From a virus (Duplodnaviria; Caudoviricetes), in IMG/VR virus record IMGVR_UViG_3300007852_000001, positions 546-64,545 of that record: a stretch of 64,000 nt of DNA; one strand, written 5' to 3'. Shown piece after piece: positions 4,430 through 25,439 of the stretch (positions within the stretch are counted from its first letter, which is position 1; every line of letters starts with the position of its first letter). Both the position numbers and the translations under genes were made by a program. The notes beneath the pieces were generated by a model, which worked only from the letters and a program-made list of their open reading frames with translations, did no database searches and was not told where the DNA came from.

Positions 4430-4693
4430 TTAGAACGTGTAGCGTTCTCGCGTCTCAGTGACCTCATACTCTTCACGCTGAAGGTCCGCGAACCACATGC
4501 GCATGGCACCGTCTATCATACGCGCCTTGACCATGATGGCACCATGCTCTTCGAGGACTTCCTTGGCCGCGCCCGCACCCAACGCGCTCGGGGTTCTGTC
4601 GTTCGTACAGTCGATGAAGCCCGACAGCGCTTTGTAGTCATTCTTACTGCTGTACTCGTTCAGCGTGTCCGCGACATCGTTGAGGTCTACCAT
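4430..4693 (-). CDS. Hypothetical early protein
   Basis: Own promoter and terminator cassette. Confidence 0.8.
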   Translation of the reverse strand: MVDLNDVADTLNEYSSKNDYKALSGFIDCTNDRTPSALGAGAAKEVLEEHGAIMVKARMIDGAMRMWFADLQREEYEVTETRERYTF

Positions 4694-4754
4694 TGCGATT
4701 GAAGCAAGGGGATACGGGTATAAAAGCGTGTCGATTCGAGAATCGTACGAAGCG

Positions 4755-5156
4755 TTACGACTCGTTCTTGGCCTTGTGGTAGCCGCCGTGGGCGTTCTCG
4801 GGAGTTATCCAGAGACCGCCCTGTAGGTGGTCTTCGAGGTCGCCGAGGGGCGTCACGAAGTCGTCAGAGGCCCGTGCGATGTGCTGCGTGCGACCGTCGT
4901 GTTCGACTGTGTTGTCTTTGAATGCTTCACGGTCGACCGCGTAGAGACCGTTCTCGTTATCAGCGACGAGGATGGTGTCGACCGACACGGAGACCTTCCA
5001 CTCCACGTCAGTATCCATCATCCACGCAGGTTCATCGAACTTGCGGAGGCCGTCGTGGTAGTGGACGAAGACAGCATCGCGGTTTTCGTCGCGGCCGCAG
5101 CGGCCGACCTCGTTTCCGTTGTGGTACTCGCTCATTCCGTTGGCAGTTACTCGCAT
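4755..5156 (-). CDS. Hypothetical early protein
   Basis: Acidic ORF after an early promoter. Confidence 0.75.
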   Translation of the reverse strand: MRVTANGMSEYHNGNEVGRCGRDENRDAVFVHYHDGLRKFDEPAWMMDTDVEWKVSVSVDTILVADNENGLYAVDREAFKDNTVEHDGRTQHIARASDDFVTPLGDLEDHLQGGLWITPENAHGGYHKAKNES

Positions 5157-5233
5157 CGTGTTTGGACACACGAGGGCTATTGGTATAAACCTGTCGATTG
5201 CGGCGATTGGCAAATAAAAAAAAGTCGGCTACG

Positions 5234-7662: not shown

Positions 7663-8121
7663 ATGTCTGAAAAGTTGACCGTCGACCGAGCCGACCTTGA
7701 AGACGTGTACGTACAGATGGACGATGAACTGGCCAAAACGCGGATGCGGCGCATCTTCCACGACAGTGCCGAGCAGCCGTTCGACCACGACACCGAGGAT
7801 GCCGTCGAACAGGCCCGTGCAGAGGGATTCGCTGCGGGAATGTTGATGGCCACGATGGCACAGACTGGCATGTTCGCAGAAGACGCGGCCGAAGACCCTG
7901 CGACCGAGGAAGAGGCGCAAAAACACCTCAACCCGCAGTTCGAGAACACTGTCATCGAAATTCCGTGGGACGGCTCGCCTGAAGACCTGTACGTGGCACT
8001 CGACTTCGACACCGATGTGCAGACCCGCATCGAAGAAACCGACATGCCCACTGGCTGGACGGGCGAGCCGCAGGACGTGATGACGAGATTGACTTCTACG
8101 GGCCAGAGCAGTGAACCGTAG
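7663..8121 (+). CDS. Hypothetical protein
   Basis: Acidic ORF, leaderless start after CGAAAGTCTTTTA promoter. Confidence 0.8.
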   Translation: MSEKLTVDRADLEDVYVQMDDELAKTRMRRIFHDSAEQPFDHDTEDAVEQARAEGFAAGMLMATMAQTGMFAEDAAEDPATEEEAQKHLNPQFENTVIEIPWDGSPEDLYVALDFDTDVQTRIEETDMPTGWTGEPQDVMTRLTSTGQSSEP

Positions 8122-21556: not shown

Positions 21557-22165
21557 ATGGAAGCAATTGACTCACACGAACTGTACGGTGACATCACGCG
21601 TGACGAGGCCGTTCGTCGCCTGCCCGAAGTAGAGGACATCCGCGACGAAGAGTTGCGGGAGCAGGTCATTCAGGTCATTCGGGACATGCCCGACTACTTT
21701 TGGACAGCGCCAGCCTCGTCGCACCATCACCCGCCCGAGCATCAGGCTCGACACGGCCTCTGGCTGCACACGAAGCGGGTCTGCACGGCCTTTGAGCGCG
21801 TGGCCAAGTCGATGGTCAAACAGGGCCACCTCGACTGGTCGGACATCGACAAGGGGCGTGCGGCCTGTATCCTACACGACATGTACAAGTACGGTATCCC
21901 TCCCACGAGAGTGAGCGGGACGAGCAACAGTCATGACATCGTGGCCGCCAACTGGCTTCGAAACCACACGGACCTGCCTGACGAAGTGTGTAATGCCGTC
22001 GAAAGTCACAACGGGCCGTGGTACGCTGGCTCACAGCCAACGAGCCATCTTCAGCAGATGGTCCACGTGGCAGACCTACACGCCAGCGACCCCGACGCTC
22101 GCATCTCTGTGAAAGACCCGCATCCTGTCCTACAGGAGAAGTTCCCACGAATCAACGAGCGATAA
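21557..22165 (+). CDS. HD-domain phosphohydrolase
   Basis: GLWLHT, LHDMYKYG, SHNGPW, HVAD motifs. Confidence 0.88.
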   Translation: MEAIDSHELYGDITRDEAVRRLPEVEDIRDEELREQVIQVIRDMPDYFWTAPASSHHHPPEHQARHGLWLHTKRVCTAFERVAKSMVKQGHLDWSDIDKGRAACILHDMYKYGIPPTRVSGTSNSHDIVAANWLRNHTDLPDEVCNAVESHNGPWYAGSQPTSHLQQMVHVADLHASDPDARISVKDPHPVLQEKFPRINER

Positions 22166-23010: not shown

Positions 23011-23925
23011 ATGGAGAAATTCCCGAAAGTCAAATATCCGAACGACCCCGAGACCGACGGCCTCAAGGCTGGTGAGGTTGTCGTCACCGAGAAACTGGAC
23101 GGTGCCAACTTCCGCTTCACGTGGGACGACGACGGTGAACTGTGGATAGGCACCCGCAACCACAAGTACAGGCATGACGACGAGAACGTTCCGAAGGCGT
23201 TCCGCCATGCCGTTGAGTACATCCGTGAGACTGTGAACTACGAGCCGCGGTTCTCGAACTACACGATGTACGGCGAGGCCATGCACTTACACAGCCTCCG
23301 CTACGAAGACGTGGACTACGTGCAGCCGTCGAAAGGCTCCGCCTACTTCGGCAGCGAGCCGAACGTCGTCGTCTTCGACGCTCTCGACAACATCACTGGT
23401 GACTGGCTACCGTGGCACAGCGTCACGGCACTCGCCAACGACATGGGGCTAACCACGACACGGGTTCTCGAACGTGGCGACCCAGAGCATGTCTCGTTCG
23501 ACGTGCCCGAAGAGTCGATGTTCGGCGGCCCGCCCGAGGGCATCATAGTTCGACGCGTCGACGGTAGCGTCCGCGCCAAGAAGGTGACGGACTCGTTCAG
23601 CGAGAAGAACGTAGTCGCGTTCAACGACAAGAATAAGGCACAGACCGACTCTGGTGAGTTTGTTGCGTCGTACGTCACGGACGCCCGCATCGAGAAGCAG
23701 GCTCACAAACTCGTGGACAGTGGCGAGTACGAACGCCTTGAGATGGCGATGATGGAAGACCTACCCCGCGAAGTCCTCAAGGACGTGATGGGCGAGAACG
23801 GGTGGGACCTTCTCACGTCGGGCGGTTTCGAGGGCATGTGGGACGACGACTTCAAGTCTGAGGTGCGGTCGAAGGCGTCGAAGAAGTGCGCTCGCGTCCT
23901 CAAGAACGAGGTAAATGCCCTCTGA
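23011..23925 (+). CDS. ATP-dependent RNA ligase, Rnl2 family
   Basis: Motif I EKLDGANF, YGEA, VFD, EGIIVR, AKKV; Rnl2-like C-terminus YVTDARIEK. Confidence 0.85.
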   Translation: MEKFPKVKYPNDPETDGLKAGEVVVTEKLDGANFRFTWDDDGELWIGTRNHKYRHDDENVPKAFRHAVEYIRETVNYEPRFSNYTMYGEAMHLHSLRYEDVDYVQPSKGSAYFGSEPNVVVFDALDNITGDWLPWHSVTALANDMGLTTTRVLERGDPEHVSFDVPEESMFGGPPEGIIVRRVDGSVRAKKVTDSFSEKNVVAFNDKNKAQTDSGEFVASYVTDARIEKQAHKLVDSGEYERLEMAMMEDLPREVLKDVMGENGWDLLTSGGFEGMWDDDFKSEVRSKASKKCARVLKNEVNAL

Positions 23926-24050
23926 TGTGTTGGGAATGTGGCTCGGCTGGCGAACTTGAGAAAGCGGAGGACAGCGACCACTGGGAGGGACGGTGCCCGA
24001 ACTGTGGTAACGAATTCGAGACCGTAATTTGGGACCGTGAATTGGAGTAA
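23925..24050 (+). CDS. Zinc-ribbon microprotein, 41 aa
   Basis: MCWECG...CPNCG; TGATG coupling to the ligase. Confidence 0.65.
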   Translation: MCWECGSAGELEKAEDSDHWEGRCPNCGNEFETVIWDRELE

Positions 24051-24117
24051 GGCCGTTGCGGAGGTACTTTCGGGGCTTGACCCCCACGGTAGTATCCGCG
24101 AAGGCGTTGACCAGAAT

Positions 24118-24135
24118 CGAAAGCCTTAATAAGGA
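24118..24135 (+). promoter_or_regulatory. BRE/TATA promoter of the ncRNA operon
   Basis: CGAAAGCCTTAATAA matches the other viral promoters; no ORF downstream. Confidence 0.7.
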
Positions 24136-24155
24136 GTAGTGCGTAGGTGTAGACA

Positions 24156-24263
24156 GGTCGTGCCCGACGGCCATAGTACCGAGGTCGCCCCTTGGAAAAA
24201 AGCAACAAAGAGCATCGGGAACATTACGCTCGTGAGGGGTCATACCCTTACGGGTGTCTTGCA
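24156..24263 (+). ncRNA. Structured 5' RNA of the ncRNA operon (unknown class)
   Basis: Stems GGTCGT/ACGGCC, GCCCCTT/GAGGGGT, GAGC/GCTC, ATACCC/GGGTGT. Confidence 0.45.
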
Positions 24264-24266
24264 GTA

Positions 24267-24335
24267 GGGTTTGAAGGGTAGAACAGTGGTCGGCTCCAAA
24301 CCGACCGCTTGGGGGTGCAACTCCTTCCAAATCCA
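24267..24335 (+). tRNA. Non-canonical tRNA-Trp(CCA) with degenerate D-arm
   Basis: Acceptor GGGTTTG/CAAATCC+A; anticodon arm GTCGG-CTCCAAA-CCGAC; T-arm GGGGG-TGCAACT-CCTTC. Confidence 0.75.
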
Positions 24336-24340
24336 CTTTA

Positions 24341-24653
24341 GGGCCAGCAAAGGGCGTGGTCTGCCGCTGGCCGACAACACGACACAATATAAATGAAACG
24401 GAGTCACTGATGGTAACGAGTTAGCGGGAGCCTGTCCGACGGCCGTCCCTATGTGGCCCACGTAGGACAGGTGGGCGCTCGGTAACGTCAGGGTTAAAGG
24501 CACAGCCGCTCACTGTAATTGTTTGAGGCTATCGGCAGAACTGGTTACTCTGCCACAGAGCCTACAAGATGTCGTGCAGTAATCGGCCAGCACTGAAAGC
24601 AATAGCCGACACGGCATATCCACCAAGGTGGACGGGAAACCGTCCTGAGGCCT
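24341..24653 (+). ncRNA. ~310-nt highly structured RNA of unknown class
   Basis: Nested helices GGGCC/GGCCT, GCTGGCCGA/TCGGCCAGC, CACGACA/TGTCGTG, CTGATG-GTAA-CGAG/CTCG-GTAA-CGTCAG, CCTGTCC/GGACAGG, GGCAGA/TCTGCC, GGACGG-GAAA-CCGTCC; no ORF. Confidence 0.7.
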
Positions 24654-24664
24654 CTTTACTACGC

Positions 24665-24737
24665 GCCACTGACGCATAGAGATACGATGCACCGCCCTTG
24701 TAAGGCGGAGAGGGGAGTGTAAGTCTCCACGGTGGCT
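24665..24737 (+). tRNA. tRNA-Thr(UGU), non-canonical
   Basis: Acceptor GCCACTG/CGGTGGC+T; D-stem GCAT/ATGC; CCGCC-CTTGTAA-GGCGG; T-loop TGTAAGT. Confidence 0.85.
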
Positions 24738-24830
24738 TTAGCAGAAGCGAAAGCCACAGTCTCCACGGTGGCTTTTACGCAGAGCAGAAGCGAAAGTCTT
24801 TTTATCCCCTGTCTCCTAACGTAGGATGTA

Positions 24831-25439
24831 ATGGGACTCTTCGGACCATCCAAGTCGGAACTGGCAGACCGCATTGAGGAACTGGAAGCAACAGTTGAAG
24901 AGCAGAAGCAGCAAATGCAGGACGAAATTCTGTCACTAAAAGAGCGTGTCGACCGAAAAGAGGACGAAGCGCGGAGTCAGGCAGAGAACGCTGCACAGAT
25001 AGCCCACGCAGTTGGTCGTATTCACACCAACAATTTCAAAGAAGTGCAGGACAAGGACGGCGTTGTCGAAACGCTGGACGAACCGCGGCTCGCGTGGAAG
25101 GCGACTAACAACAACGTGGTAAAACTCCTCATTCCCGAGGGGGCACGCGTCGTGCATCCGTGGAAGAGCGATGTGTCCCGCGGTAGGAAGAAGCGCACGG
25201 ACGAGGCTATTCCCGTTGCCTTCTACGACGTAAAAAAGGGTGGTATCATTTTCTCTAAAAAGCGAGATGAACAGCCGAACATGATGGTGTCTGACCGCTC
25301 GAAGAAGGACAGTATGTTCGAGTACAACATCGGCGAGAAAGCCACTCCGAACAAGCCGCTCAACACGCGTCTTGACAAAGAGTGTACGTCTGGCATCCAC
25401 TTCTTCACCACGGAAGAGAAAGCCGTCAAGTGGTGCTAA
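24831..25439 (+). CDS. Coiled-coil protein with DUF5758-like C-terminal domain
   Basis: LLIPEGARV...KKRTDEA...YNIGE...ECTSGIHFF; less acidic than neighbours. Confidence 0.65.
   Translation: MGLFGPSKSELADRIEELEATVEEQKQQMQDEILSLKERVDRKEDEARSQAENAAQIAHAVGRIHTNNFKEVQDKDGVVETLDEPRLAWKATNNNVVKLLIPEGARVVHPWKSDVSRGRKKRTDEAIPVAFYDVKKGGIIFSKKRDEQPNMMVSDRSKKDSMFEYNIGEKATPNKPLNTRLDKECTSGIHFFTTEEKAVKWC

What the first reader, a model, noticed from the sequence alone, without database searches (positions are those of the whole stretch)
24118..24800. Viral non-coding RNA operon: ~310-nt structured RNA between two non-canonical tRNAs, next to an RNA ligase
Seen: a standard viral BRE/TATA promoter at 24118 precedes about 650 nt with no plausible ORF. 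The order is a ~110-nt structured leader, tRNA-Trp, a ~310-nt RNA (24341-24653), then tRNA-Thr. The middle RNA has paired ends, long-range helices GCTGGCCGA/TCGGCCAGC and CACGACA/TGTCGTG, a symmetric GUAA/GUAA internal loop, a GAAA tetraloop and a possible AGCGG/CCGCT pseudoknot. It lacks the RNase P (GAGGAAAGUC), SRP helix 8, tmRNA and group I/II intron signatures. Known: large phage RNAs such as GOLLD and ROOL often lie among tRNA genes in bacterial phages. Inference: this may be an undescribed archaeal-virus RNA class released from the precursor by RNase Z and RNase P cuts at the flanking tRNAs, and possibly circularised or repaired by the adjacent Rnl2 ligase.
Basis: partly seen in the sequence, partly recalled or inferred. 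Interest (0 to 1): 0.9.

Follow-up and report, generated by a model that had tools for sequence, protein, structure and literature searches.

The report
Halovirus tRNA operon with orphan RNA spacer
An uncultured salt-loving archaeal virus has a separately promoted, protein-free stretch holding two odd tRNA genes with a 329-base foldable spacer between them, but only a short element at the front of the stretch, not the spacer, is shared with the two related viruses I could fetch.

Summary
The observation largely holds. A promoter of the virus's own recurrent type sits at 24118. About 780 nt follow without a credible ORF. Two divergent tRNAs lie at 24267-24335 (Trp-CCA, Rfam 27.7 bits, below the cut-off of 29) and 24665-24737 (Thr-UGU, 34.7 bits). 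A 329-nt segment between them carries the reported long-range helices.

The nested 9+7-bp perfect helix is found at no other locus among 812 genome windows. Overall folding energy is unremarkable: z is -2.2 on the + strand and -2.4 on the - strand, and 30 of 406 genome windows fold as well. No Rfam family matches.

The "new RNA class" reading has no comparative support. The two syntenic relatives I could fetch (ligase 61-62% identical) lack the middle RNA. No look-alike was found in phage or plasmid records or in 201 sampled Halobacteria genomes.

What is conserved in 3 of 3 viruses is a ~70-nt core in the 5' leader (24156-24222) with a covarying hairpin.

Best reading: a promoter-driven tRNA/ncRNA precursor, always next to the RNA ligase gene and probably cut by RNase P and tRNase Z. 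The middle piece is a lineage-specific module of unproven function. An earlier scan note describes a similar ligase-linked unit with a Trp tRNA in an unrelated archaeal-type virus.

The parts
23011..23925 (+). ATP-dependent RNA ligase gene (Pfam RNA_ligase PF09414), directly upstream in all three related viruses
   Evidence: PF09414 at 71.6 bits, phrog_548 at E 9e-29. K28, D30, G31 and N33 (the KxDG motif) are invariant in 36 homologues. 33% identical to HGTV-1 gp217 'RNA ligase'.
23886..24050 (+). Small zinc-ribbon-like protein gene (54 aa) overlapping the end of the ligase gene
   Evidence: Only weak, below-cut-off Pfam zinc-ribbon hits. 61% identical homologue at the same place in L002.
24107..24132 (+). 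BRE/TATA promoter of the non-coding unit (CGAAAG at 24118, then CCTTAATAA). Start of transcription inferred near 24155-24158.
   Evidence: CGAAAGNCTTWW: 13 hits against 0.05 expected. The start site is inferred from the 39-40 nt between motif and ATG at 24791/24831 and 25468/25507.
24156..24222 (+). Conserved leader core: hairpin 1 (24156-24172, loop GCCCG), GUA, hairpin 2 (24179-24195), A-run AAAAAAG (24196-24202), CAUCGGGAAC (24213-24222)
   Evidence: Shared by the window, L002 and L003. Covariance model R1 scores 80.7-83.9 bits, one copy per genome, nothing else in the window. Hairpin 2 keeps pairing with different sequences in the three viruses.
24222..24261 (+). Stable 13-bp hairpin closing the leader
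   Evidence: Minimum-energy fold of 24150-24266: -42.2 kcal/mol, z -2.61.
24267..24335 (+). tRNA-Trp(CCA)-like gene with a shortened D arm and T loop UGCAACU
   Evidence: RF00005 at 27.7 bits (cut-off 29), full-length match, E 0.0024. Missed by ARAGORN at default settings.
24336..24664 (+). Lineage-specific 329-nt inter-tRNA RNA. Predicted closing stem 24341-45/24649-53. Long-range helix 24366-74/24583-91 plus 24378-84/24570-76 encloses a predicted three-way junction.
   Evidence: Fold. Inverted repeat I7. The nested 9+7 helix is unique to this locus among 812 windows. No Rfam hit. No homologue found.
24665..24737 (+). tRNA-Thr(UGU) gene, divergent (T loop UGUAAGU, one G-A mismatch in the T stem)
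   Evidence: RF00005 at 34.7 bits (cut-off 29), E 2.6e-06 when scanned alone. Cloverleaf minimum-energy fold at -27.8 kcal/mol.
24722..24775 (+). Exact 18-nt duplication of the tRNA-Thr 3' end (24722-39 and 24758-75), forming a hairpin followed by TTTT: likely end of the unit and a recombination scar
   Evidence: Direct repeat D2 and inverted repeats I3 and I6. Fold of 24738-24800.
24791..24802 (+). Next promoter, for the DUF5758 gene (24831-25439)

Best explanation
The locus is a separately promoted, protein-free transcription unit of an uncultured haloarchaeal tailed virus. It is a tRNA/ncRNA precursor of about 620 nt (about 24157 to about 24775), with the order: conserved 5' core RNA, tRNA-Trp(CCA)-like, a 329-nt RNA, tRNA-Thr(UGU), hairpin plus T-run.

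Shown: the promoter type, the absence of ORFs, the two tRNA-model matches, conservation of the 5' core, and the unit's position directly after the ligase gene (and a small Cys-rich ORF) in 3 of 3 related viruses.

Inferred: host RNase P and tRNase Z cut at the two tRNAs and release four RNAs. The tRNAs serve decoding, or replace host tRNAs that have been cut. The neighbouring ATP-dependent RNA ligase reseals broken tRNAs.

The 329-nt piece is a lineage-specific module, closed by a long-range helix unique in this genome, and not a member of a conserved class. I put about 35% on it being a functional structured RNA in its own right. Otherwise it is a tolerated spacer left by cassette recombination. 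The part under evident selection is the ~70-nt leader core.
For: The promoter motif is strongly over-represented and sits 39-40 nt before the ATGs of neighbouring genes. There are no credible frames, no coding remnants by tblastx against the relatives, and no protein relatives of the 88-aa minus-strand frame. The tRNA matches are 34.7 and 27.7 bits. In the Thr alignment the consensus D-loop GG reads GA and the consensus T-loop C56 reads U, which would keep the tertiary 19-56 pair as A-U (my reading). Synteny HD gene, ligase, small Cys-rich ORF (Zn-ribbon homologue confirmed in L002 only), RNA unit, downstream genes holds in L002 and L003. L002 carries a canonical tRNA-Val (69.9 bits) at the same spot and L003 carries none. 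The core is conserved, with hairpin 2 pairing kept by different sequences, and the pair next to the invariant GCCCG/CGGG switches from A-U (window, L003) to U-A (L002). The whole unit folds at z -4.5 on + against -2.9 on - (20 shuffles each). The nested 9+7 helix is unique. Of 125 loci with homologous ligases, 19 have ARAGORN tRNAs within the fetched flanks.
Against: There are no RNA data of any kind, so the transcript, its ends and its processing are all inferred. The Trp element is below Rfam's cut-off and ARAGORN finds neither tRNA at default settings. The middle piece is absent from both relatives and folds no better than 7% of genome windows, equally well on either strand, so it may be non-functional. 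The core rests on only 3 sequences. Hairpin 1 is not in register in L002. HGTV-1's homologous ligase is not next to tRNAs.
Confidence: 0.55

Rival explanations
1. One reading: the ~310-nt RNA is a member of an undescribed, conserved class of structured RNA of archaeal viruses. It is excised by RNase Z and RNase P and then circularised or repaired by the adjacent ligase.
For: A nested 9+7-bp long-range helix unique to this locus among 812 windows. Paired ends and a three-way-junction fold. It lies inside an RNA-only unit next to a ligase gene. No Rfam family matches. GOLLD and ROOL set a precedent for large RNAs near tRNAs in prophages (PMC5737381, passages read). An archaeal ATP-dependent ligase circularises C/D box sRNAs (PMC9014305, abstract in the search listing only).
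Against: No homologue in 2 of 2 syntenic relatives or anywhere else searched, so there is no class and no covariation. Folding z is about -2.2 and no better than on the antisense strand. 30 of 406 genome windows fold as well. No bulge-helix-bulge motif seen by eye. No evidence for circles.
Confidence: 0.15
2. The 329 nt are non-functional DNA: a spacer left by cassette shuffling, or a small inverted-repeat insertion (24366-24591). It is merely co-transcribed with the tRNAs.
For: The interval is the most variable part of the syntenic block: L002 has two extra ORFs and about 215 nt of other RNA, and L003 has no tRNA and no DUF5758 gene. Recombination scars lie beside it: an exact 18-nt duplicate of the tRNA 3' end and three copies of the BRE box. 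The helices are all Watson-Crick and fold equally on both strands, as a DNA inverted repeat would. Folding energy is ordinary.
Against: The viral genome is compact, and this is its longest stretch free of + strand ORFs after 8 kb. There is no target-site duplication at the inverted-repeat ends (read). No multi-copy relatives in the virus or in 201 Halobacteria genomes. Several further hairpins sit inside the helix.
Confidence: 0.3
3. The middle RNA is a Y-RNA-like partner of a Ro60 protein, with a stem formed by distant 5' and 3' segments, linked to RNA repair.
For: The 5' arm GCUGGCCGA recalls the start of vertebrate Y RNAs (from memory, not tested). Earlier scan notes report Y RNAs with Ro60 in other archaeal viruses.
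Against: No TROVE/Ro60 and no RtcB anywhere in the complete 64.5-kb virus; the TROVE control rings in 2 of 14 genomes, not in Haloferax volcanii. No Rfam Y RNA hit at E up to 10.
Confidence: 0.03
4. The region encodes small proteins that were missed.
For: Frames of 38-57 aa exist on the + strand.
Against: The frames look non-protein-like, rich in Arg and Cys rather than acidic residues (my reading). No homologues were found for the minus-strand frame tested. tblastx against the relatives gave nothing significant. The tRNA models fit on the + strand.
Confidence: 0.02

Closest known systems
GOLLD and ROOL large RNAs of bacteria and prophages (Weinberg et al. 2017, PMC5737381; passages read)
   Same: A large, protein-free, foldable RNA lying beside tRNA genes in a viral genome.
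   Different: No match to either Rfam model. 329 nt against an average of 581 nt for ROOL. An archaeal virus. A singleton without covariation, whereas GOLLD and ROOL are defined by conserved multistem junctions and pseudoknots.
Small stable RNAs in phage tRNA clusters (T4 RNAs C and D; recalled from memory and named in earlier scan note e1-5926491)
   Same: Non-tRNA RNAs co-transcribed with viral tRNAs and presumably released by tRNA-processing enzymes.
   Different: No sequence relation tested. The T4 RNAs are about tRNA-sized, and this piece is 329 nt.
tRNA genes plus Rnl2-family RNA ligases in haloarchaeal tailed viruses, e.g. HGTV-1 (Liu et al. 2021, PMC8651126; passages read)
   Same: An archaeal tailed virus with its own tRNAs and a PF09414 ligase (33% identical to HGTV-1 gp217).
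   Different: In HGTV-1 the homologous ligase is not next to tRNAs. Here the ligase is directly followed by the RNA unit in 3 of 3 relatives. These tRNAs are far more divergent (27.7 and 34.7 bits).
Ligase-linked non-coding polycistron with a Trp tRNA and tRNA look-alikes in another archaeal-type virus (earlier scan note e1-6065260; AI note, not checked by me)
   Same: RNA ligase gene, own promoter, about 750 nt non-coding, and a tRNA-Trp.
   Different: A different genome (marine sediment). I could not compare sequences. That unit is said to hold anticodon-less tRNA mimics, and I found no further tRNA-like element in the middle RNA.
Circularisation of C/D box sRNAs by archaeal ATP-dependent RNA ligase (PMC9014305; abstract in the search listing only)
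   Same: An archaeal ATP-dependent RNA ligase acting on small non-coding RNAs.
   Different: No C/D boxes found by eye, no circular junction data, and the viral ligase has not been assigned to that subfamily.

Membership tests
tRNA (Rfam RF00005) | Covariance-model score at or above the gathering cut-off of 29 bits, full-length | tested here: met
   The Thr(UGU) element at 24665-24737 scores 34.7 bits over model positions 1-71. It was lost by the speed filters in the larger scans.
tRNA (Rfam RF00005) | The same cut-off, for the Trp(CCA) element | tested here: not met
   27.7 bits, below 29, although full-length at E 0.0024. The D arm is 3 nt shorter than the model, and the minimum-energy fold is not a cloverleaf.
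tRNA (canonical) | Detected by ARAGORN at default thresholds | tested here: not met
   0 genes in the window. The -ps80 setting calls both, but also makes 76 calls in 64 kb.
tRNA (canonical) | T loop U54-U55-C56 and D-loop G18-G19 | tested here: not met
   The T loops read UGCAACU (Trp) and UGUAAGU (Thr) against the consensus UUCgAaU. The Thr D loop has GA where the consensus has GG (alignments).
GOLLD, ROOL, RNase P RNA, SRP RNA, tmRNA, group I/II introns, Y RNA (Rfam 15) | Match to the family covariance model | tested here: not met
   No such family at E up to 10, whether the middle RNA was scanned whole, in halves or within 1.1 kb. No tmRNA by ARAGORN.
Y RNA / Ro60 system | A Ro60 (TROVE) partner gene | tested here: not met
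   PF05731 is absent from the complete virus record; the positive controls ring.
A conserved structured-RNA class (any) | Homologues in other genomes with compensatory base changes | tested here: not met
   For the 329-nt RNA there is no homologue in 91 loci, in the L002 and L003 records, in phages, in plasmids or in 201 Halobacteria genomes. Contigs of the closer relatives could not be fetched.
Conserved leader core (candidate new motif) | Recurs in relatives with pairing kept by different sequences | tested here: met
   3 of 3 related viruses at 80.7-83.9 bits (the model was built from the same 3 sequences, so the scores are circular). Hairpin 2 is CCGAGG/CCUUGG, CCGUCCU/AGGAUGG or CCGCUGU/ACAGCGG. 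Only 3 sequences, so this is anecdotal.
ATP-dependent RNA ligase, Pfam PF09414 (Rnl2-like nucleotidyltransferase) | Pfam domain above its cut-off, and the KxDG adenylylation motif | tested here: met
   71.6 bits against a cut-off of 27. K28, D30 and G31 are invariant in 36 homologues.
T4 Rnl2 proper | Significant similarity to solved Rnl2 structures | tested here: inconclusive
   phmmer gave no PDB hit. The profile search gave 2hvq (T4 Rnl2) at E 0.48 only.
Bulge-helix-bulge substrates of the archaeal splicing endonuclease (route to circles) | Two 3-nt bulges separated by a 4-bp helix at the excision borders | not tested
   Inspected by eye in the folds only; none seen. No dedicated search was run.

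The most novel reading that the evidence does not exclude
The ligase-linked non-coding unit is a modular viral RNA system. In this reading the uncatalogued ~70-nt core (GCCCG ... GUA-hairpin-RAAAAAG ... CGGGAA, possibly a pseudoknot or junction) is its constant part. tRNAs and large lineage-specific structured modules, such as the 329-nt RNA, are swappable cargo. All work with the adjacent RNA ligase, for example as repair substrates, decoys for host tRNA-cutting defences, or ligase-made circles. The same logic would then recur in unrelated archaeal viruses, as in the earlier scan note on another ligase-linked Trp-tRNA unit.
Probability: 0.2. Interest if true: 0.7.

Novelty: new variant of a known kind. 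Interest (0 to 1): 0.42.

Why it matters
Non-coding RNAs of archaeal viruses are almost unexplored. In two full-text searches I found no paper describing such a unit in a haloarchaeal virus.

A promoter-driven RNA-only cassette sits next to an RNA ligase gene in three related haloviruses. If expressed, it would point to RNA-level host-virus conflict, such as tRNA cleavage and repair or decoys.

The negative result matters too. The eye-catching 329-nt fold is a singleton with ordinary folding energy, so it should not be entered as a new RNA class without closer relatives or RNA data. The small leader core is the better candidate for follow-up.

Tried and rejected
Searches for homologues of the region, all negative:
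- blastn (distant mode) against phages and plasmids.
- nhmmer against 91 fetched loci; the only hit was a chance one at E 0.053 in L019.
- BLAST in the L002 and L003 records.
- BLAST of the middle RNA in 201 sampled Halobacteria genomes: 0 matches.
- Earlier scan look-alikes: 0 windows.

Searches for relatives of the virus:
- Ligase alone in viral contigs: none.
- Ligase alignment A1: 11 loci in viral contigs, of which 2 are close, L002 and L003; 80 kept of 206 in metagenome contigs, all 35% identical or less except one truncated contig; 34 in genome contigs, all 34% or less.
- HD-protein alignment: the same 2 contigs.
- Two core-motif pattern scans of viral contigs: 68 and 7 stretches, of which only the L002 and L003 contigs are real.
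- The core pattern in 401 Halobacteria genomes: 4 chance-like hits without the hairpin.
- Model R1 over 124 other ligase loci: nothing below E 0.14.

The search for homologous proteins shows that many closer ligases exist (P0002 83%, P0003-P0006 70-74% identical, mostly on Logan, ENA or JGI contigs).

Other negative or uninformative steps:
- Sequencing runs: none was listed, and no RNA holder was listed.
- Relaxed ARAGORN is uninformative (76 calls per 64 kb).
- The idea that the middle RNA contains a diverged copy of the leader: the local alignment is not significant, with 68 of 300 shuffles scoring as high.
- Coding remnants of L002's extra ORFs: none by tblastx.
- Spurious-ORF trick: the 88-aa minus-strand frame had no protein relatives.
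- Y RNA/Ro60 and RtcB readings: no TROVE and no RtcB in the virus.
- Host origin of the tRNAs: only matches of 34 nt or less (17-34 nt) in 201 Halobacteria genomes.
- CCGACGGC, shared by the leader and the middle RNA, is simply enriched genome-wide (25 against 5.8 expected).
- Codon usage (ACA is 14% of Thr codons in 52 long ORFs) neither supports nor refutes a decoding role.

The supplements of Liu et al. 2021 (tables of tRNAs and gene classes) were not seen and may list related viruses.
Full report
SETTING. The window is 64,000 of the 64,545 bases of one IMG/VR virus record with direct terminal repeats, rated complete. The promoters are of archaeal BRE/TATA type. The nearest cultured relative of the flanking ligase is the haloarchaeal virus HGTV-1 (33% identity), and database homologues include Halorubrum phage GNf2 (63%). 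I therefore treat it as an uncultured haloarchaeal tailed virus. The genes around the finding are all on the + strand:
- an HD-domain protein (21557-22165);
- an RNA ligase of Pfam PF09414 (23011-23925; 71.6 bits);
- a 54-aa zinc-ribbon-like protein (23886-24050);
- after the finding, a DUF5758 protein (24831-25439).

THE OBSERVATION: PROMOTER AND ORFS. The promoter is real. CGAAAGNCTTWW occurs 13 times in the window against 0.05 expected from shuffles. The sites at 24791 and 25468 lie 40 and 39 nt before the ATGs at 24831 and 25507. By analogy, the site at 24118 should start transcription near 24155-24158. Between 24051 and 24830 there is no + strand ORF of 50 aa or more. That is the longest such gap after position 8000. 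The stop-to-stop frames on either strand do not look like proteins.

THE TWO tRNAs. ARAGORN at default settings finds no tRNA in the whole window, and Rfam at gathering thresholds finds nothing. In a 1.1-kb scan in E-value mode, the Trp(CCA) element at 24267-24335 matches RF00005 full-length at 27.7 bits, just under the cut-off of 29. The Thr(UGU) element appeared only when scanned alone. It then scores 34.7 bits, above the cut-off, at 24665-24737, and its minimum-energy fold is a clean cloverleaf. The speed filters had lost it in the larger scans, which is a caution for any "no tRNA" statement on this kind of sequence.

Both tRNAs are divergent. The T loops read UGCAACU and UGUAAGU against the consensus UUCgAaU. 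The Trp D arm is 3 nt short. In the Thr element the consensus D-loop GG reads GA, while the T-loop position that normally pairs with the second G reads U instead of C. I read that as keeping the tertiary 19-56 pair as A-U, which is an inference. Neither tRNA has a full-length look-alike in 201 sampled Halobacteria genomes. Relaxed ARAGORN calls both, but it also makes 76 calls in the window, so it adds nothing.

THE MIDDLE RNA: STRUCTURE. I scanned 812 windows of 313 nt (406 per strand) for a perfect stem of 9 bp or more with a second of 7 bp or more nested within 8 nt. Only the 2 windows covering this locus have one, whereas a single long-range stem of 9 bp or more occurs in 81 of 812. So the inverted repeat is beyond chance.

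The global thermodynamic signal is weak:
- minimum free energy -119.7 kcal/mol, z -2.18, with 3 of 100 shuffles as good;
- the reverse complement folds as well, z -2.37;
- after regression on GC content, 30 of 406 + strand genome windows fold at least as well, z -1.39.

The helices are therefore mostly Watson-Crick and do not show on which strand, or whether as RNA at all, they act. The whole unit 24150-24770 does fold better on + (z -4.5) than on - (z -2.9), from only 20 shuffles each. No Rfam 15 family matches the middle RNA at E up to 10, whether scanned whole, in halves or in context.

THE MIDDLE RNA: COMPARATIVE EVIDENCE. Only two syntenic relatives could be fetched: L002 (IMGVR 3300005198_000113) and L003 (3300019926_000277), with ligases 62% and 61% identical. 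They share the order HD gene, ligase, small ORF, RNA unit, downstream genes; in L003 the small ORF after the ligase is Cys-rich but was not matched by tblastn.
- L002 has two extra small ORFs, then a promoter, about 360 nt non-coding, a canonical tRNA-Val (69.9 bits), then DUF5758.
- L003 has a promoter and about 230 nt non-coding, with no tRNA, and goes straight to the homologue of the 25507 gene.

Neither contains anything alignable to 24336-24664. Searches of phages, plasmids and 201 Halobacteria genomes were also empty. The one possibly shared piece is a GCCAGC...GCUGGC(C)GACAA hairpin. It opens the middle RNA here (24343-24380), but in L003 and L002 it lies upstream of the leader core (and by eye). 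That similarity is below significance.

WHAT IS CONSERVED. All three viruses share a ~70-nt core right after the promoter region (window 24156-24222, L002 4420-4486, L003 4634-4700). Its layout is: an invariant UGCCCG, an invariant GUACC that opens hairpin 2, an invariant GG closing hairpin 2 followed by RAAAAAG, then CA-N-CGGGAA.

Hairpin 2 keeps its pairing with different sequences: CCGAGG/CCUUGG, CCGUCCU/AGGAUGG and CCGCUGU/ACAGCGG. It includes G-U pairs, which work only on the + strand RNA. The invariant GCCCG and CGGG are complementary. The pair next to them is A-U in the window and L003, and U-A in L002 (sequences). That is one compensatory change in favour of a helix or pseudoknot that encloses hairpin 2.

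Hairpin 1 (24156-24172) is in register in the window and L003, but not in L002. A covariance model of the core finds one copy per genome (80.7-83.9 bits, circular because the model was built from these sequences). It finds nothing else in the window, nothing in 124 other ligase loci, and no further members in IMG/VR. Because L003 has the core but no tRNA, the core is not merely a tRNA leader. Three sequences are far too few for statistics, so this is a lead.

SIGNS OF REARRANGEMENT. The last 18 nt of tRNA-Thr plus trailer are repeated exactly 36 nt downstream (24722-39 and 24758-75). The BRE box CAGAA-N-CGAAAG occurs three times (24107, 24737, 24780). Read against L002's promoter, the sequence 24747-24780 looks like an older promoter split by the duplicated piece. 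The duplication also creates a hairpin followed by TTTT, the first run of four or more T after the promoter, which is a plausible end of the unit. Together with the differing contents in L002 and L003, this marks the interval as a cassette-exchange hot spot.

MECHANISM. Shown: the promoter class, the absence of ORFs, the tRNA-model matches, the conserved core, and the synteny with the ligase. Inferred from established tRNA biology: one precursor of about 620 nt is cut by RNase P at 24267 and 24665 and by tRNase Z after 24335 and 24737. That would release a leader of about 110 nt, two tRNAs and a 329-nt RNA. No CCA is encoded.

The ligase link is circumstantial. It is adjacent in 3 of 3 relatives, and 19 of 125 homologous-ligase loci have tRNAs within the fetched flanks. 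However, HGTV-1's homologue is not next to tRNAs. The usual reading of such phage pairs, resealing tRNAs cut by host nucleases, is from general knowledge. Liu et al. 2021 propose tRNA intron removal or repair for the HGTV-1 enzymes (passages).

For the 329-nt piece, I put about 35% on a function of its own, about 15% on it belonging to a wider class still to be found, and about 30% on it being a tolerated spacer or inverted-repeat insertion. A Y-RNA reading is disfavoured, because the virus has no Ro60 and no RtcB.

COMPARISON AND NOVELTY. The unit works like other viral tRNA clusters that carry extra RNAs: GOLLD and ROOL near tRNAs in prophages (PMC5737381, passages), and the T4 stable RNAs (recalled). 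It is a member of none of the catalogued families. If both hold, ligase-linked RNA cassettes may be a recurring feature of archaeal viruses. I rate this a new variant of a known kind, of moderate interest (0.42). The leader core is the more testable novelty, and the 329-nt RNA is an orphan that needs closer relatives or RNA data.

Noticed in passing
window 24156-24222; L002 4420-4486; L003 4634-4700: A conserved ~70-nt RNA core at the start of the non-coding unit in all three related viruses, with a covarying hairpin and complementary invariant GCCCG/CGGG. It matches no Rfam family and is not found in 401 Halobacteria genomes by pattern.
   Followed up: yes
window 24722-24798: An exact 18-nt duplication of the tRNA-Thr 3' end and three copies of the promoter BRE box. 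An older promoter appears to have been split by the duplicated piece, which looks like a scar of cassette recombination.
   Followed up: partly
window 24665-24737: Method caution: the tRNA-Thr (34.7 bits, above Rfam's cut-off) was missed both by the whole-window gathering scan and by a 1.1-kb E-value scan. It appeared only when about 100 nt were scanned alone. ARAGORN at default settings also misses it.
   Followed up: yes
window, genome-wide (25 sites, e.g. 24164, 24436, 63546, 63746, 63782): The octamer CCGACGGC occurs 25 times against 5.8 expected (0 of 100 shuffles reach 25), with a cluster near the right end of the genome (63546-63789). The reason is unknown.
   Followed up: no
L013 5330-6192 (- strand), contig SL_4KL_010_BRINEDRAFT_10000002 (221 kb): An array of eight tRNA-Leu genes 1.6-2.4 kb from a homologous RNA ligase gene in a 221-kb hypersaline contig.
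   Followed up: no
L019 1791-3900 approx.; L049-L051; L058; L085; L018: Several distant PF09414 ligase genes have tRNA genes directly beside them (for example eight same-strand tRNAs after the ligase in L019, and a tRNA-Met 89 nt upstream in L049-L051). In all, 19 of 125 ligase loci have ARAGORN tRNAs in the fetched flanks. No background rate was computed.
   Followed up: partly
L002 3646-4161: L002 carries two small ORFs (about 94-103 aa and 67 aa) between the zinc-ribbon gene and the RNA promoter that the window lacks. L003 lacks the DUF5758 gene. This interval is the variable part of an otherwise syntenic block.
   Followed up: partly
window 4554-5180: The most stable 313-nt windows of the genome after GC correction lie at about 4554-5180 (residuals -18 to -26 kcal/mol), in the early region that other first-reader notes describe as a cassette array.
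   Followed up: no
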